Source of the DNA: Psammoneis japonica
Lineage: Eukaryota
Direction of reading: 5' to 3'
Assembly: GCA_008632985.1 (NCBI GenBank)
Contig: QPGO01000028.1
Span: forward strand, 553,598-617,597
Length of the DNA stretch: 64,000 nucleotides
The position numbers and the translations under genes were made by a program. Under the pieces are notes generated by a model, which made no database searches, was not told where the DNA came from, and was given only the letters and a program-made list of their open reading frames with translations. This document shows, piece after piece, positions 12,554-60,278 of this stretch (within the stretch, counting starts at the first letter, position 1; each line of letters opens with the position of its first letter).

Positions 12554-12559
12554 CTCCCC

Positions 12560-32660: not shown

Positions 32661-32749
32661 GTTTCGCGGGTTTTTCGGTGTGGCAGGAGCAGTTCAAAGA
32701 TGTGTCAGAACAACAACTAATTCGGTGATCAGAGATTGGGGCTCAACCA

Positions 32750-35575: not shown

Positions 35576-35850
35576 TTTGATCATGACAGACAATGTAAAC
35601 TTCTGCATCACAATTACGTCAGCGGCTGCAAGATTTGGGAGATTCAAATGACCGCCACATCCCGATCACTGGTCAACCCCCATGCGTCATGCGGACGTCA
35701 CTCACCCACCCCGCCCTGCCATTTTGTTTTCAACTGCATTGACGAATGTGATCATGATTTGAAATTAAAACCTGCCGTCATTGTTGGCATGCCCACTTGC
35801 TCGCATCAAAGGCCCCACCAACATTCATCATCATTCTGAGCTTTGTCACC

Positions 35851-38800
35851 ATGGTTTCCTTTTTTGATTCTGACTCAGACGATGACTCCATTGCCTCTGA
35901 TGAATTTGGGTGTTGTCCCACCGATGACGAAGAGGATGACGAAGAGGATGTCTCTGACATCCCCCCACTTGGTCCTCGCATGCACGATCCGGATGAATTG
36001 GATGACGAAGAGGAGGAACTGGCTGTTGATGACGATGACTCCTTGTTTCTTGATGACACCAACGCACATCGCGCCGCCGTTGCTGCTGCTTTACGCAACC
36101 ATGAAGCAGACAGAGAAAATCATGATGACGACAATGGTGGTGGCTGGCACCAAGCCGGTGACCAGTTGTTTGCTGATCGCGAGGAAGAGCAGGACGATGA
36201 CAATGCATCGCTTTGTGATCCAAACAACCTGTGCGACATGCTCAGTGTTGTTGACACCATGTTCGCTGGGTTGGAATCCGATTGGAAAAGCCCCATGGCA
36301 ATGCCCATTGCTCTCGTCATGACCAAGGGAATTCTGCCATCCCAATTTCTGGATGAAGACATCACCGAGTTTTTGGGCGGGGGCCCCAAGGTAAATCTGC
36401 ACAAAGGTGCTCTTGTTCACTTCAACAATGTGAAATGCCCCCCTCCGCCCCCACCTGTCAAGGGATGCAGCAAAGCCAACGTAACATGCAGCACTCTGTG
36501 CGCAGACATCTGCTCTCTCGCCCACACTTCAGGATTCGAAACCACAGCCAATGGGTCGGGCCGCATCCTTTGCCAATTGCACTCACGCAAGAGACACCCA
36601 GCAGACTCTTCACTCAAGCAACTCAGGCAATGTGCATCGCAAGTCGTCTCTTCGAGATGATCATCATCGCAACAATCGCAAGCAAGGAAACAAGAGACAG
36701 CCTCGTCGCACCCAAACCACAAAGTCAATCGGTCCCGAAGACACCTGTGGATGGATTCTCCAAATCAAGAGTGACCAATTTGGGCATCACTTCATTTGTG
36801 GCAATGGTCATTGTTGTCACGAGAACCACATGTGCCGTCTCCCCGAGGAAATTGTTGCCAAGGTCAGACACATTGGTTCGTCGGAGATCACCACCATGAA
36901 GCAAATGAGAAAAGGTCATTTGGGTGCAGGACATGTTCGCAACTACATTCTGGCCAACGAGGATTTTTTTTTGACAAGGTCGCAAATCCAGCACGTGATG
37001 AGAGCAGCTGACAAAGAAAATCTTGCTCCGTTGATTCCCCCAGCTGACGCCACTCTCCAGGATGGCATGATGGAGTTGCAACGTTTCTTTGACAGCTGGG
37101 ACTGCATCGACTGTTGCATGCTCGCAAGTGGCAAACGCCAGTCGGACTCCTGACCGACAGCGAAATCTGCAATTTCAGTCTGCCTTGCTCTTCAATGAAG
37201 TGAGAGTCGACGGCAAAAGACAAGTGCAAGACTTGGAGCAGTTGTGTTCTGACGTGATGCAACAGTGTCAACGTGAGCAAGACTCCTTCAAGCTTCGATC
37301 TTGTGACAATCTTTTCATTGGTTCTGCCTGGACCATTGGTGGTGAGGAACGATTGTTCCGCATGTTGCCTCATGTCGTAAAAGTGAGAAGAGGACGCTCC
37401 TCACATTTTCAGCAAGATCACCGGATGGATTGCACCTCGTTTTCCTGCGTGTCTGCTTGCCGGACCAGACTCAACCCACCTTTCGCTGGGTGTTCCAAGT
37501 CACTCTTCCAACGCTTTTGGACAAGGCTTCCTTGCAACGCATCCACATGATGTTCACCGACGGTGATTCCCAAGAGATTGAAGAGCTTCGTGATGCCATC
37601 CGGAGGCACATGCCGGGAACACACCAAGCAAGATGTGGATGGCACATTGTCGAAAAAGGTTGGACGATGCACTGTCCCGGAGAAAAAAGTGCATCCGCTG
37701 GACCCACAAGGGAACAGTTCAAGCTTTTTGTTGCCACAATGAAGGCGTGGTTGCACTTGTTCATGCATCCTGGTGGATGCAAAAACGAGGAGGAAATGAT
37801 GGTGTCCAAGGCTCTTCTGCTCATGTTCCTTCATTCTCTGCTTGTTCTCCAAGTTTGCGATGGTGTCGAATCAACACCCAGCCGTTTCTTTGTGTTTGTC
37901 CATGGCAAAGTTTTCGACAAGGAAGCGAGTTACGCCCACTGCAAAAAAAATGGATTCAACATTATGAAGAAGCAAACAACTCGAGTCATGAAGGAACAAA
38001 TTTTGGCATGAAAAGTCACGCCACGCCAGTCCATCCGTCGCAAAACCTTGCAACTGGTGCAACCAATCTAGCCATGCAGTCGGATGTGAAGGTGGCGGAA
38101 TTGACCAGGGAATCAAGCAGGATGGCGCACACACGGTGCCTTTGGTCAAAGCTCCCAACAGCCAATCACATGCTGACAAAGTGTGAGGGCATGCTGGCAC
38201 AATGTTGGAAGGCCGTCCATTTCTATGAGATTGGGCGAAGGCCGAACCCTCAAGGAATTGATCCCAACATTGCAGTTTGGGAAGTGGTTTGCAAAGCACC
38301 AAGCAAAGAAGAAGGAACAAACTCTCAAGGAGACCCAGAAGACCAAGCAAGGACGGATCAAGAATGTGTCGATGAGGTTGGCAACCCATTCTTCAAGTGC
38401 ATGCCGAAGTTCCGCCGGGTTCATGTTGCAAGAATGGACGGAGCGTGTGTCCTTCATTGCACCTGTGCTGAGTTCCAACGCACAGGCATGGGATGCATTC
38501 ACCAGATGTCCACAATGAAGCACGAGTTGGGGAACCAATTTAAAGGTTTCTCTCATCATGACATGTCCATCGCATGGTGGCACAAGCACTTCCACCATGC
38601 GTTCAGTGGAGACAAGCATGTGGATGGGCTTGACGACATTTTCGAAACGTTGTTGGACAATGACGTAAAGGGTCCCCAGATGCCGGATCACTTTGATGCG
38701 TCCATTGCACCTGAGCCATCCACCTGTGATGAGTCTGCATTTGATGCTCCCCATGATGTCATGTCCTCTTTGACGAACTGCTCAGTGGAACAAGCAAAGC

Positions 38801-39282
38801 TTGCTGTCGATTCAACCATGCCTTTGTTCAACACCGCTGCCACTGGGTTTTCACAAATGTCGAACGTCAACACAAACGATGACGACAATGAAGAAGACCA
38901 AGACCTTGCGTTTGGTTTTCTAGAGGAAGCTTGTCAATCCGGATGTGAAGCATGGTCTCAAAACTTCCATCAAGAAGTGGTTGCAATTGCGGACCAAAGT
39001 GTGCGGAACATTTTGGTGCCCAGGATTAACACCCTCGCAGGGTTGTTTGAATCTCAAGATGTGTCATCTGTGGACATGCCAGATGTTGCACCCTTGGCTA
39101 CGATGACAGACAAGATGATTGCAGACATGCGGGGCAAGATGCACTCTCTGCGTCTTCCTTCGTCGATCCGGGATGAGGATGACACACCTCATTGGGTGTC
39201 GAATTGTTCCGAGAGAGACACCAAGTGCCGACACACACACACATGCCGCAATGGTCTAACTGAATGGCAACACACACAGTGA
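35851..39282 (+). pseudogene. Mutator-like (MULE) transposase with SWIM zinc finger, disrupted
   Basis: Motifs FIGSAW..EERLFRMLPHV, FRWVFQVTLPTLL, MFTDGDSQEI, ARCGWHIV, NNSSHEGTNFGMK and SWIM CTCAEFQRTGMGCIH. Several frameshifts. Confidence 0.85.
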
Positions 39283-39329
39283 CAAATGCAAATGTTTGTT
39301 GCAAGTGCAACACACACTGACAGAACGAG

Positions 39330-42300
39330 CCACAATTGAGCCCAGTTGCGATGACGGATTTGGTGGTCGAGGCGCAAACTGATTGCCTCTTGAAGAACTT
39401 TGCGTGACAAATCCATGCCATCCCAACCAAGCGTTTCCAACAGATTCACCGGATGGTTCACGGCGAACCAATGCCTGGGAGTCATGAGTTCCTTGGGGAA
39501 CTCAAACGACTTCAAAGTCTCCACACTTGGCAAGGTGCTGGCACTCATGTCCACCGACATGTCCACATGCCTGGCTGTCTCGTCCCAATCAAGCAACTCA
39601 TCACCAAAAGGGAAACGCTCGACAATGCACTCGCACGTTCCAGCATTGTCTCGTCCTGGCAAATGAACCGCAAGCACATTTTCATCAATGCGTTGAAACA
39701 AGGGAGTGTCCTTAAATGTCGTGTCACAAAACTCTTGCTCTTCGTGGTTGTCTTGTTTCTTCTCCTCGCAAATGTGCGATTCGAACCATCTCTCTCTGCA
39801 GTGCTCTGCCAATCCATGTTCTCTCCTCAAAATGTGAAGCAGCATCTTTCCAAAGCTGCAAATCTTGGGTTTGCTGTTCAATCGTTTGTCCGCAGACATG
39901 TTGCCACTTGTGGCACCAACAGCTGCGTTTCCCGGTTTGACAATGGCCTGAATTGCCATCCAGGAAGGAAGTGGTCCAACAGTGGCCTTTTGTCCAATGT
40001 CATGAGTTCCGGTTGAGTTGCCGCATCGTTTCACATTTTCATTCAGAAGGGAAAGGAAAGACTTACAAGCCTTGATTTGGTCGAGCTGAGCTGGGATCAC
40101 CCCCACAAATCTCTTCCTAAAACAAAGACAAGCCGCAGCCTGAACGCGTGCCTCAACTTTCCACTTGTCTTCAGGCATGACATTCGCGTTGGGCTTCACT
40201 GCATTTCCAAAACGGCAGAAGTCCTCTCGTCCACTGCACATTCCTCCTTGCACAAGTGGAACAAGTGGATGAACATCTTGGAAAAGTAGAAACCAAATGA
40301 CTCATCAACCATGTTGGGTCGCAGGGCGTCTCGAGTTCCAGCCAAAAGCAGCATTCGGGATGCTGCACCCAAGAAATGTGGACCCGGAGCACATGCGTGT
40401 GTCACACATTGGACGGAGATCAATTCCAGGTGGTTTAGATTAAAGACCAAGCACAGACGAAGGCACACCTCGTAGACAAGTTGTGAGCATCCGTCGGGGT
40501 CAAGGTTGCACTGGTTTTTGATGGCGGGAAATCCAGGCAACCATTCGGTCCGCTCACCGTCATGCAATCCATTGCCAATGTTGCGATGAGACGGCTCAAA
40601 TCATTGGCAGTTGCGGACATGCCCAGCCAGAATCGGATCACAGGCATCTTGGTTTTTCACCACATCATCGCACACCTTGTGCATTTGACAATTGACTGCG
40701 TGTCGTTTCAACACTCCGGTGACTGGGTCAGGCATGAGGGAAGAAAGACTGACTGCCACACTGTTGTCTCCATTCTTGGTGTCGTCGTGATGCTCGCAAT
40801 GGCATCCAGGAATTTGCCAGGTGTGACTGAATCGGCCATGGTCAGGGTTTGCCTTGGGGTGAACAGTTCCGCCAAACTTGGCACTACGATCTGGATGGTT
40901 GGGATTGGCAAATGGGTGCTGACCCTTGGGGACAAAGCTGGCCATCTTACCCAACAATGCGGCAGCCACCGAAGCCTCAATCATGGCATCAACAAAGATG
41001 GGGTTGGGCTCTCAGTTGCTTGATTTGGACTTGGATTTGGGCAACCATGTGGCTTGAAGAATGCCAGGACGGCTGTGTCCATTGGTGCTGGCAGTTCGTC
41101 CATTGGATTGCCCACCGGCAAAGCCCACGTCACAGAAGTCAGTGGGATTTTGCCGATTTGCCGATTTCTTCTTGGGAATGCAGTTGAATTTACATCCACA
41201 ATCAATGCCTTCATGGACACCACGCCAGTCCATGTCCTTTGCCAAAGAACCAGCACCTTGGTCTCCGTTGTGGAGAACAACCGTGTCGCTGGTGTGCACC
41301 AATGTCTTCGGATCATGCAAGTGCACGGTCGGAGACACACCGGGAGATTCGAAAACCTGCTCGAGTCTGTTCATCAAAAAACTGACATTGCACTGGCCAT
41401 GACCACACACACCAGATTCCAACAGATGTCCTTGGCACTTTGCCTGCAGCCAAAAGTGAATCTCGGAAACATGTTTGAGCATGCGGTCAATGTCCAGTCT
41501 GCCTCGTTCAACAAGAGCGGCTTTTTCATCTCGGGGTGGGTCGAACCACTTGTCACTAAACTTCTCGACAAAAAAGCCTTGGTTGCAAATGGAAGACTGG
41601 TGCAAAGAGGCAGGCAATGATTGGCGCAAAATACGAAAATCCTTTTCAGTGCGGATGGGAGATGATGGCAAGAAGAAAGGCTCGTCGGCGGGGTTCTCTG
41701 TGGTGCAATCGACGTTTGCAGCAGGGGAGAAGGATTCCGGACCACGGACATCATCAACACTGCATGGGTCACCATCTGCAAACATGCACACAGTGGGGGA
41801 ACTGACGCTGTTCTCGTCAACAGCGGCAGCAGCACGGCTGCTGTTCTCGTCAACATCATCGGCTGAACGATCACTGAACAGGCGGGCAGGATGCAAGGCA
41901 GCAGCATCAACAGTGGAAACCGCTGTGGGAGGAGCAAGGGAGACAAGCAGCCTGCCAACCCTGTCAAATCAGGCACAGGGTGAGGACTCAACACCAGCGG
42001 CGGAGTTTCAACAGCCGAAGCAGCTGCACCCACGAGGTGACGCCACCCAACCTTGATCTTGTCCAGCCATGAAGACGGAGAGAATGGGTGCACATGAGGT
42101 GCACCAGACTTGGCACACCCCTTGCAATGACGTTTGTGCTTCCCACCACAACTGCCAGAGCGACGGCGCTTCCTGTCAGAGCGACGTTGCGAACGATGCC
42201 CAGCCACCATTTGGCCAACATCAGCCCAGAGAAGAGTGGTGAGAGAACTGGTCATTGCATGTGTCGAACTGAAAGTGAGAATCACAATGCGTGTTGGTGA

Positions 42301-42428: not shown

Positions 42429-42751
42429 AAAATTTCATCTAGCATGCGCCATTAATACAACATAAATTTATATTATATTGGAGATTTAATACACACATAC
42501 AGTCAACGGTCCAAGGGACGAATACTTAACGCACATGACGTCCGCATGACGCATGGGGGTTGACCAGTAATCGGGACGTTGACACCTCGAAGAATTTCTG
42601 TGACAGAAACCCGAACAGTGGCATCTACGGCACTGTACGGTATGTAGTCTACGTACAGTATCTATTTTAGGTACCCTTTTGGTAGACATTTCGTCGCTGA
42701 TTGACTGCATCGCTGTTTACTGGGGAGAAGAAACACGAGCTTTTCTTGGAA

Positions 42752-43567
42752 ATGATGAATGTTGCGGAAGATGACAAAGAAGATGAGGGGGGCTTCATGC
42801 ATTTTTCAGTTCATGTTGAGAGAGCTGGAATCACGGAAGTCAACGGCGAGTATGAACAAGCTGGTGAATTCAATGGCGCTAGAAAGTTCATTAAGGAAGG
42901 CGTCTGGGGAAAGCGTCCGGTTGTTTTCTTGCTGTTTCGGTGCTACGTTTGCGACGACTTGAGACGCTGGTACATTTCTGTTGCGCCCAGAGGCCTGCAG
43001 CCAGGGACAAACGCTGACATCGATTTCTACACTGCGCCAGCCGATAACCCGCGAGTAGTAACTCCTCCTGAGGATGGCTGGAAAACTGTTGGAGTAGGAA
43101 GGGATCCGCCACCTCAGTTGATAGTGAAAACCCAGGAAATGCAGTCGGACTGGGATATGTCCTGTACGCAAGACTCGGGCGAAGAAGACGAGGGGGTCTT
43201 AGTGGATGTTAAATATTTGCCCGACCACTCAGCAGTTCGTGTTGAGAGAGCTGGAATCCTAGAAGTCAACGGCACGTATGAACAAGCTGGTGAATTCAAT
43301 GGCGCTAGAAAGTTCATTAAGGAAGGCGTCTGGGGAAAGCGTCCGGTTGTTTTCTCGCTGTTTCGGTGCTACGTTTGCGACGACTTGAGACGCTGGTACA
43401 TTTCTGTTGCGCCCAGAGGCCTGCAGCCAGGGACAAACGCTGACATCGATTTCTACACTGCGCCAGCCGATAACCCGCGAGTAGTAACTCCTCCGGAGGA
43501 TGGCTGGAAAGCTGTTGGAGTAGGAAGGGATCCGCCTCCTTCAGTTGGTAGTATAGCGACCATTTAG
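42752..43567 (+). CDS. Protein with two near-identical domains of about 105 aa (VERAG..VNG.Y...RRWYIS..PGTNADIDFY..PP.DGW)
   Basis: 426-bp period DNA duplication (about 42806-43195 versus 43232-43627). The domain resembles the C-terminal module of diatom BTB/POZ proteins (from recall, not verified). Confidence 0.7.
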   Translation: MMNVAEDDKEDEGGFMHFSVHVERAGITEVNGEYEQAGEFNGARKFIKEGVWGKRPVVFLLFRCYVCDDLRRWYISVAPRGLQPGTNADIDFYTAPADNPRVVTPPEDGWKTVGVGRDPPPQLIVKTQEMQSDWDMSCTQDSGEEDEGVLVDVKYLPDHSAVRVERAGILEVNGTYEQAGEFNGARKFIKEGVWGKRPVVFSLFRCYVCDDLRRWYISVAPRGLQPGTNADIDFYTAPADNPRVVTPPEDGWKAVGVGRDPPPSVGSIATI

Positions 43568-44063
43568 GAAATGCACTCGGACTCGGATATGTCCTGTACG
43601 CAAGACTCAGCCCAAGAAGACGAGGGTAGGCCTCATTGGCAAATTCTTAGGGAAGATGCGCATCATTATGAGTTGATATCCTTATTTACGTCCTTGTGGT
43701 GAGGTAGGCCACCCTCTTGACTTGGGATCATACGACATCAAAGTTGTGTCGGAGCTCCGAGAAAAGTATTTGGGTTTGTTAGCTAGATCGTTTCGCAAAA
43801 TAAGTCAAAGCAGAACAAACTCTCTTTTTGCGTACTAGAGAAGATGATGACGGCTTTTTTCGGAAACGACAATGAAGAGGAAGCCGCGTGGAGTAAGTTG
43901 TATGTCTTGCAATATAGCTTTTTTCTTTACACACCGTCATGACTTCTACATATTCAGCAAGCATGAGTATAAAACTGACACTACAAGAATCACCTCTAAG
44001 CTGATGACTTCTAAAAACCCGAGAAAATGGTCTATTTGGCTATCCTGAGGCATACCGGATTGA

Positions 44064-46332
44064 TCACATTGACATGATCTGGTCAAAACGCTCCACTTCT
44101 TCTGGACTCATTTCCGGTTCCTTGGTGTAACGAATGCGCCGTTCGTAAAAAGTCGAATGAACATGCTCAGCGACTTCTTCCGCCAAGGCCTTTGGGATTG
44201 CCGCCGCATTCCATTGCCTCCCGTGAGACCTTGCCCCAATGGGGTGCGTCCCCCCAGCAAAAGGACACTTGCTGTCGCATTTGAATTCGGCCAAGGTGCC
44301 ATGCAAGCGAAAGTCATTAGTCCAAATGTAGGTTGGCTTCTTGTCCTCTCGCCCTAATGCACAGTAGTGGACAATAGTGGGATACAACCCCATAGTCTCG
44401 ACGATCTCCTTCATGAGCGGCATCTTGCGCAAGAAACCCACGGGGTTTTCAATAACCACAAGTAGATGAGGATTATGGGATCGCGCCCACTTCATAATGG
44501 CAAACATTTGTGCCAACAACCTGTTGTGCTCCCGTGCTTCTGGTGTCTTTTCGAATTCACCTTTTTCTGGATTACGATGCTTGCCCCCCGACAAGTTGGA
44601 ATAGGTGAAACAGGGTGGACTGGCCCAAATAAAGTCGGGTATCATATCAATGTCGCTGTATTTCAACTTCATAATATCCAACCTGTCAGTCGCATACGAC
44701 GTGGGAGAGTTGTCAATGCTCCGGACGCGCCATTTGCGATCCGCAAATTCTTGCGTCACCACACCACAGCCCGAGAAGAGCTCCAGACAACACAATTGTC
44801 GTCCTCGGACGGGATGCATCCGCATGGGGCGACTGGCCCGACACCTCATGAGCTCGTGAAACTCGAAATCTTCCTTTTCGCCGTCATCATACGTGACTTC
44901 CCACATTTTGACCTTGAGGCCATCCACTTCCAACCATTCAGCGTCCTTGGTGACGGTTCCATGATAGGCCGAGCCGTCGAAATTCTTGCGAATCCTCAAG
45001 CCGACACGTGGATTAAAGCGCTCTTCGTCTGTAACGTCGTCCGTGTCTTGTTGTTTCTTGGCTTGATGGATGAGCTGCATGGCCTTGTTGAGTCCATATG
45101 GCGGCTTCATTTGACTCAGAGCCGCAACGACTTCCACCTCGGTGACTCCCATGCGAAAGCACAAATCTCGTTTTGCGGTTGCATAGTCCCAAGTCCGTTG
45201 GGAAGGCGGTGCATGTTTCCGCGGCGGCTTGGAAGTCTTGTCGTCTTTACCTTCAACTTCTTCTCCAGAGGGTTCTTCTTCGTCGTCTTCATCTTCTTCC
45301 CTTACTGCACATTCAAGCAATTCGTCCATATCCAAGTCCTCATGGTCTCCGTCTTGGTAACGCACCCGCCAACTCATGACTACTTTTCCGTTCTCGTTGG
45401 TTGCTTCCGGTCCAGAAATCACTTTTCCCCGATAGTATATCCCATCGTCAAAGAGTTTCCGAATCTTCATACCGACACACGGTTCTTCATTGAAATCTTG
45501 ATGCTTGCGTTTACGAGGATGATGATGAGCCATAGTAGCAGTTTCATACTCGTTTAGATGAGACGGTGGCTGGCGTTCGCGAGTCGTCATCCTCTTGTTG
45601 GCGGCATCCCTCTCGTTCAACTCATCATGATGATCATCATCTTTTTTAGCAGCAGGCTTTTTCTGTTCATCCTCCTCGTCCACGTCCGTGTCATCTTCTA
45701 CTTGCTTCCTGGTATCTTCAGGATTCGTAGCAGTGTCCTCGGGATTCATTCTGGACAGCAGGGCTTTCTTGGGAGGCGACTGGACCAACGCAACGTCGTC
45801 TTCTTCCCAACACTTCCTCCTCCAACTCTTCTTTTTCTTCTTCTTCCAACTCTTTTTCTACAGAGTACTTGTCTTTACCGATTGCACATTCGAGTAACTC
45901 TTGCTTGGTCAAATCCTCTTGGTCGCCGTCTCGGTAGCGTACTCGCCAACTCATGACCATGCTACCGTTCTCGGCGGTTGCTTCTGGCCCAGAAATCACC
46001 TTGCCAAAAAATTTCCCTTCTGGAAATTGTTTGCAAATCGGCATGCCAATGTATGGATTATCTTCTTGAGGATCTTGATGCTTGCGCTGTACAGGAGTCG
46101 TCGTCCCCATGGCCGTAGTCGTAAGATTGGTAGTCACACCTTCAGTGTCAACAACCGGAGCTCGCTCCGTTTTCTTCTTGTTGCCATCCGGAGTCACTGC
46201 AGCAGCAGCAGCAGCAGCTACAACTTCCTTTGCAGACGTTTTCGTTGACGCCGTATCGCCTTTGTGACCCTTGTGCAAAGACACCGCCTTTGCCACCACT
46301 TGCGCAACTCCTAAATCTTCCTCGTCCATCAT
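44064..46332 (-). CDS. Cytosine-5 DNA methyltransferase with three Tudor-like domains and a UBA-like segment; one-base frameshift at 45806-45808
   Basis: Motif I LELFSGCG, motif IV IWASPPC, motif VI VIENP, VHYCALG..KKPTYIWTN, and motif X AIPKALAEEV. Tudor-like G..I.K.F....(Y/F).G.V.....W.V.Y.DGD.ED units occur three times. Removing one G in ttgggaagaagac joins ORFs 45718..46359 and 44064..45788. Confidence 0.85.
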
Positions 46333-46457
46333 GGTTGATTTTTTTGTGAGGGCGGGCAACGCACGATATCGTCGCCATAATCATCAGCGATCTTTTCTGT
46401 ACGGGGCATGTGTGTATAATTCTACATACTGATTTTGCTACGAGACTACATTACCAT

Positions 46458-49400
46458 AAGATCTTGCGCCACATTTTTTTCTGATTCCAACGACCGGCCG
46501 TGGTCCGTCGAAACTGCATTACACGATGTTGTGTCACACAATGATGCATGGCATGGAATTCGCTGTTGTCGCTTTTATCATTCTTGCAGGGCCAGGGCAT
46601 ACCTTATTTCTAAAAGCACTCTTCAAGTCTTCCTGTAGTCTTCTTCTGTTTTGTCAGGTCCATCATTGTTGTTTTTGTTTTTGCATGGGTTGCATTTGCT
46701 CCAATCAGAGTGCCCTGTCAACGGCGGCACAAGAACAAGAGATTGATGCACCTTGCGACACTGCACGAGAGGTTGTGTCGGGCATTGAAAGCATTCCCTT
46801 GATGGTGAGAAATGTGGAGAAGGTTGAATTTCTGGATGTGTTTCCGAATTTGCCATGGCGATGCGGACGCGTTCCAGCTCCAGGTGGGGCCTTGCACTGT
46901 GCCACTGAACTGTGGCACAATTGTTTTTTATGAGTCAGCCGGGGCAGGGCTAGTTGGTCGCGCATGTTTGGGTTTGATGCAGCCGTGCAACTAGCCATGC
47001 CCTGCAGGCAAAGCTGTTGGTGGCACGTGAGCAGATGCAGCACAGTGCCGTGGAAGCAACAAAGCAAAGAGCACGGCGTGGGTCAAAACGTTGTAAAATG
47101 ATGCGACAACAAGCAGTGAGAAGAAACCCAACTTGACCCATGAACACAGCGCACAAACATTGTCCAACAACTTCAATGGTGTCTCGCATTCCCTGCTTGC
47201 AGATCAGTGAACGCCACTCGTGCGTTGCTCGCCATGGTGTTGTTGGGCGTTGTCGTGTTGTTTGCGTGCGAAGAACATTCTGTCCATTCATCTGACAGTG
47301 AATCTGTTTTGGCAACAGTGGATGTTTTGCTGCATCCAATCTGAAAACATTTTGAGAAGCGCTTCGGGGCGACCCTGTTCAGGGCGTTAAACAGAAATTT
47401 TTTTGTGCAGATTCCAGAGTTCTTTCGGGGTGTTCTGTGAGATTTTTGAAATGCCGCGTGCATGTGTCAATTAAAAGCACAACAAAATTTTATCTCAAGC
47501 ACGCAGTGCATGGTCATCAGACTGTGCAGGCGTGTGTGCATGTGTGAGGTGCAAGTGGAACATGTGTGGAATCACCACTGAGTGAGTTGACAGGCGGTGG
47601 ATTTTCACCGGTGCACAATCTGCAGGCTCTGCAGGGAAGACAAATTCATGTCAGTTCCTGAGGCTTTCACACATCATTGAATTTTCCAACGCCTTTAATT
47701 TGCACATGCAAGAACTCAAAAGTCTGACAGAACACCCCGAAAGAACTCTGGAATCTGGATGAAAAAAATTCTGTTTGACGGTCCGAACAGGGTTGTCGCG
47801 AAGCGCTTCTCAAAACATCTTCCGATTGAACACAGCAAAATGTCTGCTGTTGGCAAAACAGAGTCACCATGGGCAAAATAGATCCCCGTCCTTCGCGCAC
47901 AATGACAGTGGCACGACAACACACAACAACACCATGGCGAGCAACGGGAATGCTGTTCACTTGTCTGCACACCAGCTGGCATTTCCACATGAGATCAAAG
48001 CCATTGGAAAATGTTTGTGTGCTGCATTCCTGGGTCAAGTTGGGTTTCTTCTCATTGCTTCTTGTTGTTGTGTCACTTTACAACGTCTTGACCTGCACCA
48101 TGTTTTTTGCTTTGGCTGCAAGTTGGCTGCTTCTGCTCGATCCATCCGCGCCGCACCACCGAACAGCTTTTCCTGCAGGGTGTGGCCAGTTGCTCATCAC
48201 ATCAAACCCAAATGTGCATGAACAACCAGCCCCACCCCGGCTGACTCACAATGTCCAGAAGCATCAGAGACTGACACAAATTTGTCTTTCATGCAGACCA
48301 CGTAGACAGAGCGTGCACCTGCGGAAAATCCACCGCATGTCAACTCACTCAGTGGTGATTCTGCATGTGTTCTGCTTGCACCTCACACACACACACACAC
48401 CTGCACAGTCCAACAACCGCGCACACGTGCATGAGATCATCCGTCGCATGTTTCACATGTGCATTTCTGCGTGTTCTGTTGTAAAAAATTGTTCATTCAT
48501 GACAACAAAAAATGCACTGGGTGCATTCTTTAATGTCTGAAGAACACACCCAGGCACATTGTAAAGAATGCACTTCAAGTGTGGAGGAGGAGATGCATTC
48601 GCAAAATTGCCTCTTTTTCTGTTGGTGATCATTGACACATTCATTGCTTGACAATTTTGCTGCAGAGCTCACACGCAGAATTCTGCAGGCCCAATGTCAC
48701 AAAAAGTCCCAAATGGGACTGGAGCCCATCTGTGTTCCAGGTGTGCCACAGGTGGGACCTCATGCTGCTGGAACTGTGACATCGACAGTTTTTTAATCGC
48801 GTCGCATGTCGCGCACGTGCATTTCTGCGTGACTTTGGTGACATTTTGCATCATTTACGGTGCAATTGTTGGGCGATCCATTCAACAACTTTTTTGACAT
48901 TTTTTCCTTCTGCGCCATTCTTGAATGTCTTGAGAATGGCACAGGGCAGGCGGATTGTCCAAAACTTTGAGTGGGGACAGGGGCATGTGTGCCACAAACT
49001 TGGTCACTCATTTCATGTCGAAGACAAACATGTGCATCAACCAGAGCATGAACCACAGAGCTTGCGCGCAGAATTCCACGGGGCAGGAACACATCTGGCA
49101 CAAGAAAGCATCACAGAACAGAAAAAAAACAAGAAGTGTGTGGCTGGGCAACAACAAGAAGGAACCCTCGTTTGCTCAAATCAAGATGATTCCTTGGGTT
49201 GAAAAGAAGAACACCCATGTTCATTCAGTCTCAACATTGGCTTTTCAAACAAAGAGGGCAAAGGATCAGAAGACATTGAAAATTTGTGTGTGTTTTCTGC
49301 CACAACATCCCAGTCAGAAAGAGAGTCTTGATTTTGTCCATTGGCTTTGCCAGCAAAGACAATGCACTGAGTTTCTGTTCATGCTTGGTGCTGAAATGTG

Positions 49401-49494
49401 CAAGAAACATCTTGGTGATGAAGTGCCAGCAGAGGATCATGCCAATGCTGCAATGAAATGTCAAGAAGAGAAACAAGCAGAAAATCAATGGTGA
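46458..49494 (+). pseudogene. Decayed duplicate of the SRPBCC gene at 60510-61049, including its upstream region, split by an insertion of about 2.25 kb (about 46859-49111)
   Basis: 46458-46858 aligns with about 60291-60681. About 49112-49494 aligns with about 60683-61045. Confidence 0.9.
46928..48430. repeat. Interleaved inverted repeats A-B-A'-B' inside the insertion
   Basis: A (about 46928-47470) is the diverged reverse complement of about 47695-48250. B (about 47500-47665) is the reverse complement of about 48260-48430. Confidence 0.8.
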
Positions 49495-49957
49495 GGAAGC
49501 ATTCCATCAAAATCTGCTGACTTCAGCTGTGCAAGTGCAGCCCATCTGCTCCAAGGTGCACTGGGGTTTTTGACTCAGATGACCTTCAAAAGAGGAAAGC
49601 CAATGACATTCTTGATCTCATGCAAAGCTTCATGGAACAGCCAAGTGTTCTTAACTTGCTGACATGCCCCCATTTCTGATGTGCAGCTTTGAGACATCAA
49701 GCTGTGCAATGCCCAGAGGCTTTGGCTTGCTCTGGATTTGAAAGCCAACTTTCAATTTGGCAGTTCTGGGGCTCTTTCTTCATTGCATCAAAGTCACATT
49801 TTTGGGGACTTGAAGCACATGAGAATGAACTTCAGGTGTGAACCAGAACAAGTGACTTGAGACTCTGGAAATCTGACTTGTTTGCAAGGAGGTGCATTTG
49901 TGCAAGAGCGTCTGGGGTGTTTTCATCAAAAGTGGATTTTTCCAATCAACTCTGGCT

Positions 49958-50216
49958 GGCCTGTTCCAGCTCCAGGTGATCTGCTTTTCATCACACGAGA
50001 GGCCGATTTTCTGTGCAGTTTGGCGCAATTGACTCCTTCAATTTTGATGGTTTCGAAAATCAAAAGGTGAGTGCACACCCAAAAATGCATGCAAAGTGTG
50101 CACTTGCCCTTTGATTTGGCAAAAAACGGATTGGAAAAAGTCAATTGTGCTGAATGCACAAATTGCCAAATGATGGGAATCGAGCCCGCGCGGAGCACCT
50201 GGAGCTGGAACAGGCC
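49958..50216. mobile_element. MITE, copy 1 (259 bp)
   Basis: 21-bp TIR ggcctgttccagctccaggtg. 4-bp TSD ggct at 49954-49957 and 50217-50220. Confidence 0.9.
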
Positions 50217-50543
50217 GGCTGGTGGGCACTCAAGAGAGCTTGTCATTGTCACAGAGTGATTTGCTGCTGGCTCTTGTGCACCTTCCTGCATCTTCTCTAC
50301 ATGTGTGCTGTCATTTCCAATTCTGCCACATTGTCTGCTGTCAGCATCACCCCATTTTCAGGAGCCAATTTTGCCTTGGGTTCAAGACAAGCTGCAGTGC
50401 ATTTGGCAGCCTTTGCAACACCTTGTTTTCTGTTGACTGCTGCAAATCCAACTAGAGTGTGCATGTTTTTGCCACCCTTGTCTGTTTCAACCACTGCTTG
50501 CTCTGTGAGCAGCAGGCAGGCCATCTGTTCTGATTGTTCCCCT

Positions 50544-50806
50544 GGCCTGTTCCAGCTCCAGGTGCTCCGTGCGGGCTTGAATCCCATCATTTGGCAATTT
50601 GTGCATTTGGCGCAATTGACTTTTTCCAAATCCTGTTTTGCCAAATCAAAGGGCAAGTGCACACTTTACATGTGTTTTCGGGTGCACACTCACCTTTTGA
50701 TTTTCGAAACGATCAAAATTGAAGGAGTCAATTGTGCTGAACTGCGCAGAAAAGGCCAACCGGCCTCTCGCGATGAAAAGCGGATCACCTGGAGCTGGAA
50801 CAGCCC
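50544..50806. mobile_element. MITE, copy 2 (263 bp), same family in the opposite orientation
   Basis: Same TIR with one mismatch. 4-bp TSD ccct at 50540-50543 and 50807-50810. Confidence 0.9.
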
Positions 50807-52169
50807 CCCTCGTGCCACACCATCACTTTGTTTTTCTCAGAGGTGCTCCTGTGTTTTTGTAACTTGGTGTGGGGGGTTCCTCTTTTTTTGACAGGAGCTG
50901 GGTGTTCAACCTCAACAACACAAGGGACTCACTTTGAAATGGCGACCAACTGACCAACCCACATGCCAATTGATGGATGTGAAAAAGCAAACCTGCATCC
51001 ATTTGAAGTGCTTGTGGATGTGACAAACAGTTCTGTGGTGAACCCGATTTGACTTCAGATGATGGTTGGAACACGGATGTAAAACAACTTTGCCAGTGTG
51101 GTTGCTCACTTGGGGTCTGATCTTTTTGCTCCTTTTGAACAGACACGTTTCTTTTGCCTTTCAAAAAGACACAAGAAGATCGTTGCTGTGTGGGGTCATG
51201 GATGACATGTTGTCATCAGAGCATGAGCTTCAGCAGCTCTGCAAGCCGTCACATGCAAGCATGTCCATGTGGCCAACAACTGGGGGGACCGCGGTGCCGC
51301 TGCAGGATCCAGCTGCGTCAACTCAGCTGCAAACAGTCTTTGCAGCAGATGCAGTCTTGTCAGAGCATCTTCAAGACCCATCACTCAACAGTGCCAGTTT
51401 GGGTGTTGCTGTTCAGGCCACTCAAGCTCAAATCTCTGGTGACACAGCAGTCCATCTGGCAGACAATCATGAGAGTGCAATTGCCGTGGACTGCCTTTTT
51501 CACAAACTTCTTGAGGATGAGAAAAAGCACTCAATGAACCTGAGTGTGACTTGCCTGTTGAAGTCTCTGTCCCAGCGGCCATGCATTTGACAAAAGAGAT
51601 TGATGGCGGCTGGAGTGGCTGGAGTTGGTTCTTGATTTGAAGACTGCAGAAAAACCATCTTGTCATCACAAAGTGACACGTTAACCATCTGTTTGCTTGA
51701 GGAGAGAGCAGATTCTGTCATCAAAAGAAGCTGCTCTCTGGTGCACTTTCCTGCCACCAAGCGGCACAACCAGTCATGGAGCATCATGCAAAACACCATG
51801 ACAAGAAGCACAAACAAGAGAGCACTGGCAAAAAGGCCAAATGCCCCATCATGCAGTGATGGCAGGCACAGCTGTTGGGTCTTGCTCTTGCAGCACTGCT
51901 TTTTGTAGTCGGTGCTCATCTGTCGCAAAAGGGCAACAAAGCACACGTCAGGCACACCTTGTGCTCAGGTCTCCCAAACAGTGGACATTGAAACAACACA
52001 GCCATGATCAACACAAATGGGATTGCAACAGTGCAGACTTTGGATGAGGAGTCACTCGTGAAATGAGCATTCTCTCATGCTGGGGCTCAGTCAAGGCTGC
52101 TGACCTTCCATGTGAATTTGCCATGCATTCAAGGCACAAGAACCATTTTTAGAGACACTCTCTCTGGGA

Positions 52170-55450: not shown

Positions 55451-56688
55451 TGTCGACATTCTCTCTTTTGAATAAGTAATGTGTGCTACATGTATGAAGG
55501 TTGTTCATAAAAAGGGCTTTAATGAGCCTGTTTATAATTGTCTCTTCATGAATGTACAGCATAGAGAATCTTTTGAATCATTGGTCAAACCTCGCATTCA
55601 GCATCTGTCAAGAGCACTCTGGTGTTACAACAGACACACATTGTAACATCTGCAATGTGTGTTTAAGAAATCCAATGTGAAAGACCGTCAGAGCCAACTG
55701 AATGTGCTTGCAATGCCTGGCACAATTAACTGGCTTGTGTGCCCGCACATTGCGCATGTGAAGACCTTGTCTGGCACACCCAAACAAGGGTTGAGACACC
55801 CACCTTCTCTGCAGCCCACATTCTTGATGATGGCATGCTGAACAGTTTCTGAGAGCATGCTTGAAATTCCAAGAGATGATGCATTTCAGCAGGAGAGAGA
55901 AGAACTGCCATGTCTTCATTGATGGGCACTTTTCAAATGTGGTGGGTGTGGCTGACTTCATTCTCAGCAGTGCTTGCATCAGAGGTGGCAATGCAGTGGT
56001 TTCCACTTTCCTTTGTAAAATTTTGAGTGTGCATTGTTAAAATTGTCAACAAGCAGAACTTAAAAAATGCCAGCAAAAGTGCTTGACAAAATGAAGGTGT
56101 TTTTTGCATTTCATCTGATGTCTCATTAACTTTTCTTGCACAAGCTTCAATCAAATGCATGCAATGTTTAATTTGGTTGGGAACAAAATCCATTTTTTGT
56201 CATGCATGGTTTGGTTTCCTTTTGATCATAATTAATTTGAACTTGGTTTTAACTTTGTCCTCCTCACTCACGTGTGTGTGTCTTTGCATGTGTGCAGTCT
56301 GCAGCACTTCACGCAAGCACGTGACCCACCTTCATTTTTCTTCACTTTTGCACAGCCTGTTGGTCTACGGCATTTTCAGCATGTGTTTTACATGCGCAAT
56401 TTTCCACACATTTCACAACAGTGCACGCTCTCCCCAAATTTGAAAAACGAGAGCGTGTGCTGTTGTGATTCACGTGGATCCTGCGTGTGGTCACAAATCT
56501 GCAAATCGACAACTGGCCATGGCGGTGAAAGACTTTGTGTCGACATTCTCTCTTTTGAACAAGCATTGTGTGCTGCATGTGTGGAGGTTGTTCACAAAAA
56601 GGGCTTTGTCAATGAGCTGGCTTGCAGTTGCCTCATCATGAACACACAGCAACACATGGAGAATTTTTTGAATCATTGGTCAAACCTC
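55451..56688. repeat. Dispersed direct repeat of about 145 bp: 55451-55593 (TpA intact) and 56538-56688 (TpA lost)
   Basis: Both copies run tgtcgacattctctcttttgaa...ttgaatcattggtcaaacctc. Confidence 0.92.
55603..55979 (-). pseudogene. RNA polymerase III largest subunit (RPC1) N-terminal fragment, copy 1
   Basis: LLSPAEMHHLLEFQACSQKLFSMP and NCARHCKHIQLALTVFHIGFLKHTLQMLQCV (clamp region, GHFGHI.L..PVFHIG). Duplicate of 58557-58953. Confidence 0.75.
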
Positions 56689-59811: not shown

Positions 59812-60278
59812 ACAATTGAAGAACTTTGATGACACTCAATTGCTCACAAGACAAATGGGGTCAAAGGGAGATCATTTTGTGATGCAGTTGCAGCTGTTGA
59901 GCTGGTCTTGTTGGCTCGTGCCTGCCTGGTGTGCTGAGCGAGAAGAACATTGGAAGAGCGGGCCAGTGTTTGAATGACTTTGATGGAATCAATTGCTCAC
60001 AAAACAAATGGGGGGGGGGGGGGGGGGGNGCAAAGGGAGTTTGTTTTGAAGCAAGTGTGGCCATTGAAGTGGTCTTGTTGGCTGGCGCACTTGCAAATTG
60101 GTGTCGCTGAGAGCAAGTGGAGCGTTGGAAGAATGGGCCAGTGTTTGAACAGCTTCGGTGACATTCAATCACTTGCAAGACAAATGGGGTAACAAAAAGT
60201 TCATTTTGAAGCGAGTGCAGCCATTGAACTGGTTTTGTTGGCTGACGCACTTGCAAATTGGCATCACCAAGAGTGAGC
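59812..60278. repeat. Three diverged tandem units of about 155-175 bp; the middle unit has a poly-G run and an N
   Basis: Recurring ttgaa..cttt/cgg/atg..caat..ct..caa.acaaatgggg...ttttg...ggtcttgttggct. Confidence 0.8.

What the first reader, a model, noticed from the sequence alone, without database searches (positions are those of the whole stretch)
44064..46332. Non-canonical DNA methyltransferase: three Tudor-like domains, a UBA-like segment and a compact phage/giant-virus-type C5-MTase
Seen: C5-MTase motifs appear intact and in canonical order with a very short variable region containing CxxxC..H. They are preceded by three Tudor-like units (about 45890-46060, 45308-45483 and 44840-45012), the first two clearly duplicated from each other. 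A helical segment RMGVTEVEVVAALSQMKPPYGLNKAMQLI resembles UBA. Established: described eukaryotic families are DNMT1-6, CMT, DRM and Dim-2. Plant DRM2 carries UBA domains, RID/DNMT4 drives RIP, and Tudor domains read methyl-lysine. Inference: this is a histone-mark-guided methyltransferase outside those families and a candidate for marking repeat chromatin. Its position between two hypermutated blocks may be coincidental.
Basis: partly seen in the sequence, partly recalled or inferred. Interest (0 to 1): 0.75.

Follow-up and report, generated by a model that had tools for sequence, protein, structure and literature searches.

The report
Diatom Tudor-fused virus-type cytosine methyltransferase
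A diatom gene joins three histone-mark-reading Tudor domains and a small helical module to a compact DNA cytosine methyltransferase of the kind otherwise found in phages and giant viruses, a combination that standard surveys of eukaryotic DNA methyltransferases appear to have missed.

Summary
On the minus strand, 46332 to 44064 encodes three Tudor domains, a three-helix UBA-like segment and a 230-residue C5-methyltransferase-like domain.

- **Frameshift:** the shift at 45806-45808 is in the window. Two independently assembled read contigs carry in-frame lengths there, giving one uninterrupted ORF of 755 or 756 codons. It is an assembly artefact at a TTC-repeat length difference, not a pseudogene or intron.
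- **Catalytic domain:** it misses Pfam PF00145 (12.6 bits against a cut-off of 22) and matches phage family phrog_757 end to end. It folds confidently, and its best structural matches are DNMT3A/B, M.HhaI and other C5-MTases. The catalytic Cys and the ENP Glu are invariant in 137 of 137 relatives.
- **Distribution:** orthologues with the same Tudor / UBA-like / Tudor / MTase layout occur in raphid pennate diatoms, some as transcripts. They form one supported clade with no viral row inside it. A published diatom DNMT census does not list the Pseudo-nitzschia orthologue.
- **Function:** the best reading is a histone-mark-guided DNA 5mC writer of viral descent.
- **Not supported:** the idea that it targets repeats.
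- **Not established:** the UBA assignment is weak, expression in this organism is unknown, and no tree with DNMT1-6 was built.

The parts
44064..46332 (-). Whole coding region of the Tudor / UBA-like / MTase protein (Met at 46332, stop at 44064-44066). It is a single exon of 755 or 756 codons once the one-base assembly error is allowed for.
45889..46047 (-). Tudor unit 1 (PF21743 type)
   Evidence: E 5.3e-6, 26.6 bits, just under the cut-off; 62% identical to unit 2; nucleotide duplication
45806..45808 (-). Apparent frameshift. The window carries a length that neither read contig shows. The site is a TTC (plus strand) repeat inside an acidic linker.
45312..45473 (-). Tudor unit 2 (PF21743 type), predicted five-stranded barrel
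   Evidence: SMN Tudor Z 7.0, rmsd 2.0, 54 aligned; RDM15 Tudor Z 6.2, 31% identity
45033..45185 (-). UBA-like three-helix module (MGVTE..AAL..PPYGLN.AM.LIH), conserved in orthologues
44844..44996 (-). Tudor unit 3, directly before the catalytic domain
   Evidence: (KDM4A Tudor E 9.2e-5 with the profile)
44067..44819 (-). Compact C5-cytosine methyltransferase-like domain (251 aa as analysed; structured core is residues 10-226)
44763..44783 (-). Motif I, ELFSGCG (SAM-binding FxGxG)
44610..44639 (-). Motif IV, PDFIWASPPC. The Cys is invariant in 137 of 137 aligned relatives.
44442..44450 (-). Motif VI, ENP. The Glu is invariant in 137 of 137.
44316..44339 (-). KPTxxWTN, the family signature at the position where canonical enzymes carry motif VIII. 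Lys is invariant in 137 of 137.
44244..44279 (-). Mini target-recognition region with CxxxC......H. Together with the Cys of HYC (domain residue 153) it makes a conserved Cys3-His set, which is a probable zinc site (inference).

Best explanation
This is an intact nuclear gene of a raphid pennate diatom. It encodes a chromatin-targeted DNA cytosine-5 methyltransferase whose catalytic domain descends from the compact methyltransferases of phages and giant viruses, not from DNMT1-6. Proposed mechanism, with the status of each step: (1) The three Tudor barrels dock on a methylated histone lysine. The cage and acidic residues match the H3K4me1-reading Tudor of RDM15. This is inferred from alignment and predicted fold. 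(2) The three-helix module binds ubiquitin or gates the enzyme. This is speculative. (3) The unit 3 Tudor sits immediately before the catalytic domain in nearly all orthologues and so places that domain on nearby DNA. The conserved arrangement is shown; its role is inferred. (4) The invariant motif IV Cys attacks C6 of a flipped cytosine, the ENP Glu protonates N3, and SAM held by FxGxG and the beta-2 Asp donates the methyl group. Residue conservation and fold are shown; activity is inferred. (5) The target-recognition region is only about 40 residues, held by a Cys3-His set, which implies a short or loose target sequence. This is inferred.
For: - Intactness: read contigs give in-frame lengths at the only break, and the ORF is then continuous at 755 or 756 codons.
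- Fold: AlphaFold2 pLDDT 94.5, pTM 0.92. In the search of 48,161 chains, the top 19 rows are all C5-MTase-fold proteins: DNMT3B Z 14.3, DNMT3A 14.2, M.HhaI 14.1, down to DNMT3B3 at 10.3. Unrelated Rossmann proteins start at 9.9. Foldseek against the PDB puts DNMT3B first at E 5e-9.
- Family: phrog_757 E 1.8e-13, nearly end to end. BFVD hits at E 2e-17 and, for Tetraselmis virus 1, 1e-12. 30 phage records. 320 of 593 IMG/VR candidates confirmed. The nearest Atlas clusters are viral.
- Catalytic conservation: Cys70, Glu124 and Lys161 in 137 of 137; Asn125 and Pro126 in 136 of 137; Thr163 in 136 of 137.
- Host gene rather than passenger: a 47-row clade (SH-aLRT 96) holds all 26 Pfam-Tudor rows and no IMG/VR row. 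Within that clade, 35 of the 40 proteins with at least 75 residues upstream have a Tudor ending right before the MTase, and 27 of the 37 with at least 150 residues upstream have the helical module.
- Named orthologues: Amphora coffeaeformis, Pseudo-nitzschia multiseries, Nitzschia inconspicua, Epithemia clementina and a Bacillariaceae MAG, all Bacillariophycidae where looked up.
- Transcription of orthologues: records under MMETSP labels, which I recall to be a transcriptome collection.
- Context: the gene's dinucleotide make-up is like that of the other genic stretches in the window, and a Rav1-like host gene lies in the window.
- Tudor: Pfam E 1e-15. Predicted barrels match SMN, ERCC6L2, PHF19 and RDM15 Tudors at Z 6.2-7.0. 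RDM15 residues Tyr623, Tyr641, Asp643, Asp645 and Glu647 (passages read) align with Y, Y, D, D, E in units 1 and 2.
Against: - No activity, methylome or expression data exist for this organism, and no RNA run holds the stretch.
- PF00145 is below its cut-off here (12.6 against 22 bits) and in 60 of 64 relatives.
- The canonical motif VIII QxRxR and motif IX are not recognisable. They are replaced by KPTxxWTN, so catalytic competence is assumed by analogy.
- I found no experimentally characterised member of the compact family.
- The sequence link of the Tudor units to RDM15 is not significant on its own (E 0.11 and 0.034). Unit 3 is closer to KDM4A. The structural Z-scores of 6-7 are ties among many Tudor, SH3-like and other small barrels.
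- The UBA-like call rests on Z 5.8 at rmsd 4.9 and on sub-threshold HMM hits.
- DNMT2 shows that a C5-MTase fold can act on RNA.
Confidence: 0.7

Rival explanations
1. The domain has the C5-MTase fold but does not methylate DNA. It may act on RNA, as DNMT2 does on tRNA, or transfer another group. Alternatively the domain serves as a non-catalytic DNA- or SAM-binding module within a chromatin reader protein.
For: Canonical motifs VIII and IX are absent. PF00145 scores below its cut-off. With the profile, the best sequence-level PDB matches among methyltransferases are Dnmt2-type enzymes: EhMeth E 0.0057 and DNMT2 0.018-0.03. A C5-carboxymethyltransferase also appears among the fold matches (row 11).
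Against: The nucleophile Cys, the ENP Glu, the FxGxG motif and the beta-2 Asp are invariant or nearly so across 137 relatives, which argues against a dead enzyme. Phage and giant-virus relatives are annotated as DNA methylases and sit in DNA viruses. Fusion to histone-reader domains points to chromatin.
Confidence: 0.12
2. It is a RID-like effector of repeat-directed hypermutation. Like RID in fungal RIP, a methyltransferase-fold enzyme would drive C-to-T change at CpG in duplicated DNA. That would produce the CpG-loss half of the CpG+TpA to TpG/CpA signature seen in blocks on both sides of the gene.
For: Blocks at 23-29, 32-42, 47-52 and 56-60 kb have CpG o/e of 0.08-0.7 and TpA o/e of 0.00-0.15, with TpG and CpA at 1.4-2.1. 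One hypermutated copy (49159-49489) of a genic stretch (60714-61040) has lost 14 of 14 CpG and 14 of 14 TpA, mostly to TpG/CpA. That C5-MTases can deaminate cytosine when SAM is limiting is recalled knowledge, not a result of any call.
Against: Proximity of the gene to the blocks is the only link. The TpA half of the signature (A-to-G / T-to-C) cannot be made by a cytosine methyltransferase. Spontaneous deamination of 5mC laid down by any DNMT would give the CpG half. I could not obtain long contigs from other diatoms to test co-occurrence.
Confidence: 0.08
3. It is a passenger gene of an integrated virus or transposable element rather than a host chromatin gene.
For: The catalytic domain is of viral type. 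The gene lies between degraded repeat blocks, with a retroelement RNase H relic at 33483-34943. Published work describes 'orphan' DNMTs brought into eukaryotes by viruses (PMC12344493, passages read).
Against: The same multi-domain architecture recurs in several diatom genera and forms one clade without viral rows. The reader domains are eukaryotic. The orphans described in that paper are said to be 'generally sparse, lacking companion domains'. The gene itself is not hypermutated: CpG o/e 0.98 and TpA 0.45. No viral hallmark genes were seen among the 28 neighbouring ORFs scanned.
Confidence: 0.05
4. It is a pseudogene, broken by the frameshift at 45806-45808.
For: The window sequence has the frame break.
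Against: Both read-derived contigs show lengths that restore the frame, one letter fewer and two letters more. The ORF is then open over 755 or 756 codons. All catalytic residues are intact. Caveat: both runs come from one sample, which may be the source of the assembly, so they are an independent assembly but not independent material.
Confidence: 0.03

Closest known systems
Compact phage and giant-virus cytosine methyltransferases (PHROG phrog_757; Tetraselmis virus 1 putative cytosine DNA methyltransferase; Bacillus phage Deep Blue/Bcp1 'C-5 cytosine-specific DNA methylase I')
   Same: The catalytic domain has the same length (about 210-250 aa) and the same motif set, with 27-38% identity: ELF.G.G, PD.IWASPPC, ENP, KPT..W.N, C...C..H and IP..L.
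   Different: The viral proteins are mostly stand-alone. The diatom clade adds Tudor and helical modules, plus a six-residue insertion and an Arg (residue 197, 33 of 47) in the mini recognition region.
DNMT3A/DNMT3B (animal de novo methyltransferases)
   Same: They are the best structural matches (Z 14.3 and 14.2; Foldseek E 5e-9). They also have a short recognition region and are guided by histone-reader domains.
   Different: Only 13-16% identity. DNMT3 uses PWWP and ADD readers and matches PF00145 (recalled), whereas this protein uses Tudor units and fails the PF00145 cut-off.
Plant CMT/ZMET2 and DRM2; fungal DIM2
   Same: The logic is the same: a C5-MTase coupled to a histone reader (chromodomain/BAH) or to UBA domains. 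ZMET2 (Z 11.4) and DIM2 (Z 13.3) are among the fold matches.
   Different: The catalytic lineage differs. There is no chromodomain or BAH, and no motif permutation as in DRM. That DRM2 carries UBA domains is recalled, not tested here.
Diatom DNMT5b forms with Tudor domains, and the diatom DNMT3/4/5/6 set (Hoguin et al. 2023, PMC9998398)
   Same: They occur in the same organisms, and that paper reports Tudor plus C5-MTase in one polypeptide for some DNMT5b (passages).
   Different: Those are long PF00145 plus SNF2 proteins. Supplementary Data 1 and 4 of that paper list Pseudo-nitzschia multiseries models 285042, 192957 and 170853, but not 190972, which is the orthologue of this gene.
Arabidopsis RDM15/PDS5C Tudor domain (PDB 7de9), an H3K4me1 reader acting in RNA-directed DNA methylation
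   Same: It has the highest sequence identity among the 50 solved structures shown for the reader module (31%, Z 6.2, rmsd 2.3, 55 aligned). The cage Tyr/Tyr and the Asp/Asp/Glu positions align.
   Different: The diatom units carry a nine-to-ten-residue insertion between strands, and Phe in place of Trp616. The sequence match alone is not significant (E 0.11).

Membership tests
C5-cytosine methyltransferase superfamily (Dcm/DNMT fold) | Motif I FxGxG and an acidic residue at the end of beta-2, for SAM binding | tested here: met
   ELFSGCG. In the 137-row alignment F15 is kept in 130, G17 in 133 and the D36 position is D or E in all 137. All three are invariant or nearly so in the 33-sequence A1.
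C5-cytosine methyltransferase superfamily (Dcm/DNMT fold) | Motif IV Pro-Cys with the catalytic nucleophile | tested here: met
   SPPC; the Cys is kept in 137 of 137.
C5-cytosine methyltransferase superfamily (Dcm/DNMT fold) | Motif VI ENV glutamate | tested here: met
   Present as ENP; Glu is kept in 137 of 137.
C5-cytosine methyltransferase superfamily (Dcm/DNMT fold) | Motif VIII QxRxR arginines | tested here: inconclusive
   No QxRxR. The strand carries the invariant K161-P-T163..W..N. Whether Lys161 or Arg157 takes over the role cannot be told from sequence.
C5-cytosine methyltransferase superfamily (Dcm/DNMT fold) | Overall fold | tested here: met
   The model has pLDDT 94.5. The top 19 of 48,161 chains are C5-MTase-fold proteins at Z 14.3-10.3, and the next row is unrelated at 9.9.
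C5-cytosine methyltransferase superfamily (Dcm/DNMT fold) | Pfam PF00145 at its gathering score | tested here: not met
   12.6 bits against 22, covering only profile positions 4-80. 4 of 64 relatives reach the cut-off.
C5-cytosine methyltransferase superfamily (Dcm/DNMT fold) | SAM-dependent methylation of cytosine C5 in DNA | not testable with these tools
   Needs an enzyme assay or a methylome.
DNMT1-6 / CMT / DRM / Dim-2 | Family-specific companion domains (RFTS/CXXC/BAH, PWWP/ADD, SNF2, embedded chromodomain, permuted motifs) | tested here: not met
   At E up to 1, Pfam finds only PF21743 plus three sub-threshold rows: DUF7141 on both ORFs and APS-reductase_C on the upstream ORF. The motif order is I, IV, VI, then the tail.
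DNMT1-6 / CMT / DRM / Dim-2 | Phylogenetic placement inside one of these clades | not tested
The indirect evidence is that all close relatives belong to the compact family.
Compact viral methyltransferases (phrog_757 type) | Near full-length match to the family profile | tested here: met
   E 1.8e-13; residues 8-227 match profile positions 14-225 of 247.
Compact viral methyltransferases (phrog_757 type) | Signature KPT..W.N and the Cys3-His mini recognition region | tested here: met
   Counts for the diatom clade and for the other rows: C153 46/47 and 84/90; C181 46/47 and 77/90; C185 46/47 and 85/90; H192 47/47 and 76/90.
Tudor domain (Pfam PF21743, PTM/DIR17-like) | HMM match at the gathering score | tested here: met
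   57.7 bits against 27.2 for units 2 and 3 together. Unit 1 scores 26.6 bits, just under the cut-off.
Tudor domain (Pfam PF21743, PTM/DIR17-like) | Five-stranded barrel fold | tested here: met
   Units 2 and 3 are predicted with block pLDDT of 93-98. The best matches are Tudor domains at Z 6.2-7.0, although no row reaches Z 8. Unit 1 was not folded.
Tudor domain (Pfam PF21743, PTM/DIR17-like) | Aromatic cage and binding of a methylated lysine | tested here: inconclusive
   The cage positions are F, Y, Y with D, D, E by alignment to RDM15. Binding itself cannot be tested here.
UBA domain | HMM match to a UBA family | tested here: not met
   The window's segment gives only AMPK_alpha_AID (E 0.025) and CMD (E 0.03). 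UBA_2 appears in 2 of 11 orthologue segments (best E 0.0046) and UBA_6 in 1 of 11. All are below their cut-offs.
UBA domain | Compact three-helix bundle resembling solved UBA domains | tested here: inconclusive
   Three helices are predicted at residues 126-176 of the model. The match to the UBAP1 SOUBA domain is Z 5.8, rmsd 4.9, 52 aligned. The Ede1 UBA domain scores E 1.1 with the profile.

The most novel reading that the evidence does not exclude
Raphid pennate diatoms fixed a virus-derived compact cytosine methyltransferase as a further, uncatalogued lineage of eukaryotic DNA methyltransferases, wired to H3K4me1-type Tudor readers and a ubiquitin-binding-like module. In the boldest reading, this enzyme is the cytosine arm of a repeat-directed hypermutation system that erases both CpG and TpA in duplicated DNA, a process that I did not find described for diatoms.
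Probability: 0.1. Interest if true: 0.9.

Novelty: new variant of a known kind. Interest (0 to 1): 0.62.

Why it matters
Surveys of eukaryotic DNA methyltransferases start from Pfam PF00145. This family falls below that model's cut-off, so it is easily dropped. The published diatom census does not list the Pseudo-nitzschia orthologue.

If the enzyme is active, raphid pennate diatoms would carry an extra 5mC writer with its own histone-mark logic. That would bear on how methylation patterns in these ecologically important algae are read. It would also be a clear case of a viral or phage enzyme domesticated into a chromatin regulator by fusion to reader domains.

The compact catalytic core (about 230 aa with a minimal recognition region) might also interest people who build targeted methylation tools.

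Tried and rejected
- **Intron:** a GTAAAG donor at 45878 with AG acceptors at 45803 or 45800 would restore the frame. I rejected this because the read contigs show a simple length difference at 45806.
- **Expression:** no RNA holder was listed for the stretch, so nothing can be said about expression in this organism.
- **Whole-genome search:** no genome is held for this window.
- **Single-sequence PDB searches:** P0001 gave no significant match (best E 0.6). Tudor unit 2 alone matched only purine-synthesis ligases at E 0.07-0.09, which I take as chance.
- **NCBIfam:** no family for the catalytic domain.
- **Foldseek on the reader module:** no match at E 0.001 or better; the best was the SETDB1 Tudor at 1.6e-3.
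- **Metagenome scan for long diatom contigs** (to test synteny and the TpA/CpG-loss signature in other species): 284 of 596 candidates were relatives, but the 80 loci kept were mostly 27-40% identical. Only one short contig (L081, 1,875 bases) scored far above the rest, at E 6e-56, so the test could not be done.
- **Earlier findings of this scan:** nothing by place or by sequence.
- **Literature:** searches for this fusion in diatoms and for a TpA-loss hypermutation in diatoms found nothing relevant.
- **Supplements:** for PMC9998398, 12 of 23 files plus files 18 and 21 were searched. Files 13-17, 19, 20, 22 and 23 were not. The one held supplement of PMC12344493 names no Nitzschia or Pseudo-nitzschia species.
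Full report
**What is in the sequence.**
The minus strand between 46380 and 44064 holds two long reading frames that overlap in different phases: 45718..46380 (220 aa) and 44064..45857 (597 aa). The first Met of the upstream frame lies at 46332, and the downstream frame ends at a stop at 44064-44066.

Pfam finds the PTM/DIR17-like Tudor domain (PF21743) twice in the long frame (E 1e-15, 57.7 bits). It finds it once in the upstream frame (E 5.3e-6, 26.6 bits, just under the 27.2 cut-off).

Units 1 and 2 are a duplication. They are 72.6% identical over 208 nucleotides (E 1.6e-23) and 62% identical as protein.

**The frameshift is an assembly artefact.**
No whole genome is held for this window, and no RNA run holds the stretch. 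Two DNA runs of one sample do hold it.

When their Logan contigs were laid on 44000-46450, one contig lacked one letter at 45806 and the other had two extra letters behind 45806. The site is a TTC repeat on the plus strand, inside an acidic linker.

A script that applied either length to the window gave one open frame from 46332 to the stop, of 755 or 756 codons. The two contigs therefore look like two alleles differing by one repeat unit, and the window's length looks like a polishing error between them.

I had considered a 76- or 79-base intron, but it is not needed. One caveat applies: both runs come from a single sample that may be the source of the assembly. They are an independent assembly, not independent material.

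**The catalytic domain.**
The last 251 residues (window 44067-44819) score only 12.6 bits on Pfam PF00145 (cut-off 22; profile positions 4-80 of 324), and NCBIfam gives nothing. They match PHROG phrog_757, 'DNA methyltransferase', almost end to end (E 1.8e-13).

An exhaustive HMMER search of 1.84 billion representatives found 1,144 relatives at E up to 0.001, 339 up to 1e-10 and 73 up to 1e-30.

With a 33-sequence alignment, AlphaFold2 gave a confident model (pLDDT 94.5, pTM 0.92).
- A full scan of 48,161 solved chains ranked 19 C5-methyltransferase-fold proteins first: DNMT3B Z 14.3, DNMT3A 14.2, M.HhaI 14.1, a prophage enzyme 13.8, M.MpeI and DIM2 13.3, then MET1, DNMT5, DNMT1, M.HaeIII, ZMET2 and Dnmt2-type enzymes, down to 10.3.
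- Unrelated Rossmann-fold dehydrogenases begin at 9.9.
- Foldseek agrees, with DNMT3B at E 5e-9.
- Against predicted viral structures, the best matches are a 210-residue unnamed protein (E 2e-17, TM 0.68/0.80) and the putative cytosine methyltransferase of Tetraselmis virus 1 (E 1e-12).

Relatives at 27-38% identity occur widely in viral sequence:
- 30 phage records, of which 20 are Bacillus phages, variously annotated as C-5 cytosine-specific DNA methylase or simply DNA methyltransferase.
- 320 of 593 IMG/VR candidates.
- The nearest protein-atlas clusters are viral.

**Motifs and conservation.**
In an alignment of 137 non-identical domain sequences (47 in the diatom clade, 90 others), I counted the key positions.

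| Position | Diatom clade | Others |
|---|---|---|
| Motif IV Cys (SPPC) | 47/47 | 90/90 |
| Motif VI Glu (ENP) | 47/47 | 90/90 |
| Lys161 | 47/47 | 90/90 |
| Asn125 | 46/47 | 90/90 |
| Pro126 | 46/47 | 90/90 |
| Thr163 | 46/47 | 90/90 |

- Motif I (ELFSGCG) and the beta-2 Asp are nearly invariant.
- The canonical motif VIII QxRxR is absent. Its strand carries the family signature KPTxxWTN.
- The region between that strand and the final helix is only about 40 residues.
With the Cys of HYC, these form a conserved Cys3-His set: 46/47, 46/47, 46/47 and 47/47 in the diatom clade. I read this as a probable zinc site (inference).

Of 64 family members scanned with Pfam, PF00145 was listed at E up to 0.01 in 16 and reached its cut-off in 4, always over the N-terminal half of the profile. 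The family is thus a divergent branch of the C5-methyltransferase superfamily that the standard model mostly misses.

**The reader module.**
A second model (window 44808-45560, 24-sequence alignment) has pLDDT above 90 in three separate units and low confidence in the linkers (mean 83.1, pTM 0.38). The units are a barrel at residues 32-77, three helices at 126-176 and a second barrel at 189-239.
- Foldseek found nothing at E 0.001 or better; the best was the SETDB1 Tudor at 1.6e-3.
- The full scan gave Tudor domains as top matches for the first barrel: SMN Z 7.0 (rmsd 2.0, 54 aligned), ERCC6L2 7.0 and PHF19 6.8. No row reaches Z 8, and rows within one unit are ties.
- Among the 50 rows shown, the highest identity (31%; Z 6.2, rmsd 2.3, 55 aligned) is to the Tudor of Arabidopsis RDM15 bound to an H3K4me1 peptide.

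The RDM15 paper (PMC8184781, passages read) names Trp616, Tyr623 and Tyr641 as the cage, Asp643 and Asp645 as the ligands of the monomethylammonium, and Glu647 as a ligand of H3R2.

A profile of ten unit-1/2-type segments has RDM15 as its best PDB hit, but at E 0.11. It aligns Y, Y, D, D, E with Tyr623, Tyr641, Asp643, Asp645 and Glu647, with an invariant Phe where Trp616 would fall.

Unit 3 is closer in sequence to the KDM4A Tudor (E 9.2e-5 with the profile). The Tudor fold and an intact cage are therefore supported. The mark that is read is not settled.

**The helical segment.**
It is conserved in orthologues. Its link to UBA is weak:
- Z 5.8 at rmsd 4.9 to the UBAP1 SOUBA domain.
- Ede1 UBA at E 1.1.
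- Sub-threshold Pfam hits to AMPK_alpha_AID in 3 of 11 segments, UBA_2 in 2 of 11 and UBA_6 in 1 of 11.

'UBA-like three-helix module' is a fair description. 'UBA domain' is not shown.

**Distribution and architecture.**
A word-indexed search with the long frame found 47 proteins, the best at 66% identity. Named sources are:
- Amphora coffeaeformis, Pseudo-nitzschia multiseries (model 190972), Nitzschia inconspicua and an MMETSP record.
- Epithemia clementina, a Bacillariaceae MAG and a second MMETSP record.
- A Nitzschia MMETSP record.

The genera I looked up are all Bacillariophycidae. That MMETSP is a transcriptome collection, so that these orthologues are transcribed, is recalled rather than shown by a call.

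Only about a quarter of database proteins carry names. The absence of named hits from other diatoms is therefore not evidence of absence.

A maximum-likelihood tree of 137 domain sequences (quick search, LG+G4) has a 47-row clade with SH-aLRT 96. It holds all 26 rows with a Pfam Tudor hit and none of the 72 IMG/VR rows. Its neighbours are stand-alone proteins and a group containing long lysine-rich, giant-virus-like proteins and viral contigs. The tree is unrooted, and I left out partial domains (under 80-85% profile coverage) and identical rows.

Within the clade:
- 35 of the 40 proteins with at least 75 residues before the catalytic domain have a Tudor ending within 40 residues of it.
- 27 of the 37 with at least 150 residues upstream have the helical module.
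- Total Tudor units number up to four per protein; five of the 40 proteins with at least 75 residues upstream show none.

One relative outside the clade (P0133) carries a chromodomain instead.

**Context.**
The window is eukaryotic nuclear DNA. It holds a Rav1-like gene at 982-7707, an alpha/beta hydrolase and a retroelement RNase H relic at 33483-34943. The other neighbouring ORFs I scanned had no Pfam hit (28 scanned, 4 with hits).

The gene's dinucleotide make-up (CpG o/e 0.98, TpA 0.45) matches the other genic stretches. I see no sign that it sits in an integrated virus.

**Comparison with the literature.**
- Hoguin et al. 2023 (PMC9998398; passages plus Supplementary Data 1 and 4 searched) screened with PF00145. 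For Pseudo-nitzschia multiseries they list models 285042 (DNMT4), 192957 (DNMT5b) and 170853 (DNMT6), but not 190972.
- A 2025 reassessment (PMC12344493; passages read) describes lineage-specific 'orphan' DNMTs, often of viral origin, as 'generally sparse, lacking companion domains'. Its one held supplement names no Nitzschia or Pseudo-nitzschia.
- Maumus et al. 2011 (PMC3145265; passages) mention a bacterial-like C5-MTase in Phaeodactylum and Thalassiosira. I could not test whether that is this family.
- Three searches for the fusion found no description of it.
- Nine of the 23 supplement files of PMC9998398 were not searched.

**Verdict.**
The architecture and the virus-type catalytic domain are well supported.

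The gene is intact and belongs to a conserved diatom family that stands apart from DNMT1-6 by every HMM and architectural criterion I could apply. No joint phylogeny was built.

The most likely function is histone-mark-guided DNA cytosine-5 methylation. I put this at about 0.7 overall, with homology and architecture near certain and the activity and target inferred.

The proposal that it marks repeats has no support beyond its position between hypermutated blocks.

Noticed in passing
window 11000-20000, 23000-29000, 32000-42000, 47000-52000, 56000-60000: These blocks are almost free of TpA (o/e 0.00-0.15 in most 1-kb bins, up to 0.3 at the edges of the first block) and poor in CpG (0.08-0.7; milder at 11-20 kb, 0.6-0.94). 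TpG and CpA are mostly 1.4-2.1, and base composition stays near 25% each. A hypermutated copy (49159-49489) of the genic stretch 60714-61040 has lost 14 of 14 TpA (6 to CpA, 5 to TpG) and 14 of 14 CpG (7 to TpG, 3 to CpA). This is the opposite of fungal RIP, which creates TpA. One literature search found no report for diatoms. The lack of TAA and TAG explains the many long overlapping ORFs in these blocks.
   Followed up: partly
window 46446-46858 and 49159-49489 against 60278-61040: The DNA just upstream of the methyltransferase gene, and a piece 2.3 kb further on, are diverged copies (76.6% and 81.6%) of a genic stretch at 60.3-61.0 kb. That stretch encodes a Polyketide_cyc2/START-like ORF.
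   Followed up: partly
window 42701-43567 (+): This ORF has two 93%-identical tandem repeats (42807-43194 and 43233-43626) of a roughly 130-residue unit with no Pfam match at E 0.001. It lies directly downstream of the methyltransferase gene, on the other strand.
   Followed up: no
window 12278-12554 and 19059-19335: A direct repeat pair, 93.9% identical over 277 bases and about 6.8 kb apart, looks like the LTRs of a retroelement. All 17 differences are transitions.
   Followed up: no
protein P0133 (546 aa, unnamed source): A relative outside the diatom clade joins an N-terminal chromodomain (Pfam E 2.3e-5) to the same compact methyltransferase family. This is a second, independent reader fusion.
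   Followed up: no
window 44031, 45207, 45243, 45859, 46041: Single-letter differences between the window and one or both read contigs, consistent with two haplotypes in the sample.
   Followed up: no
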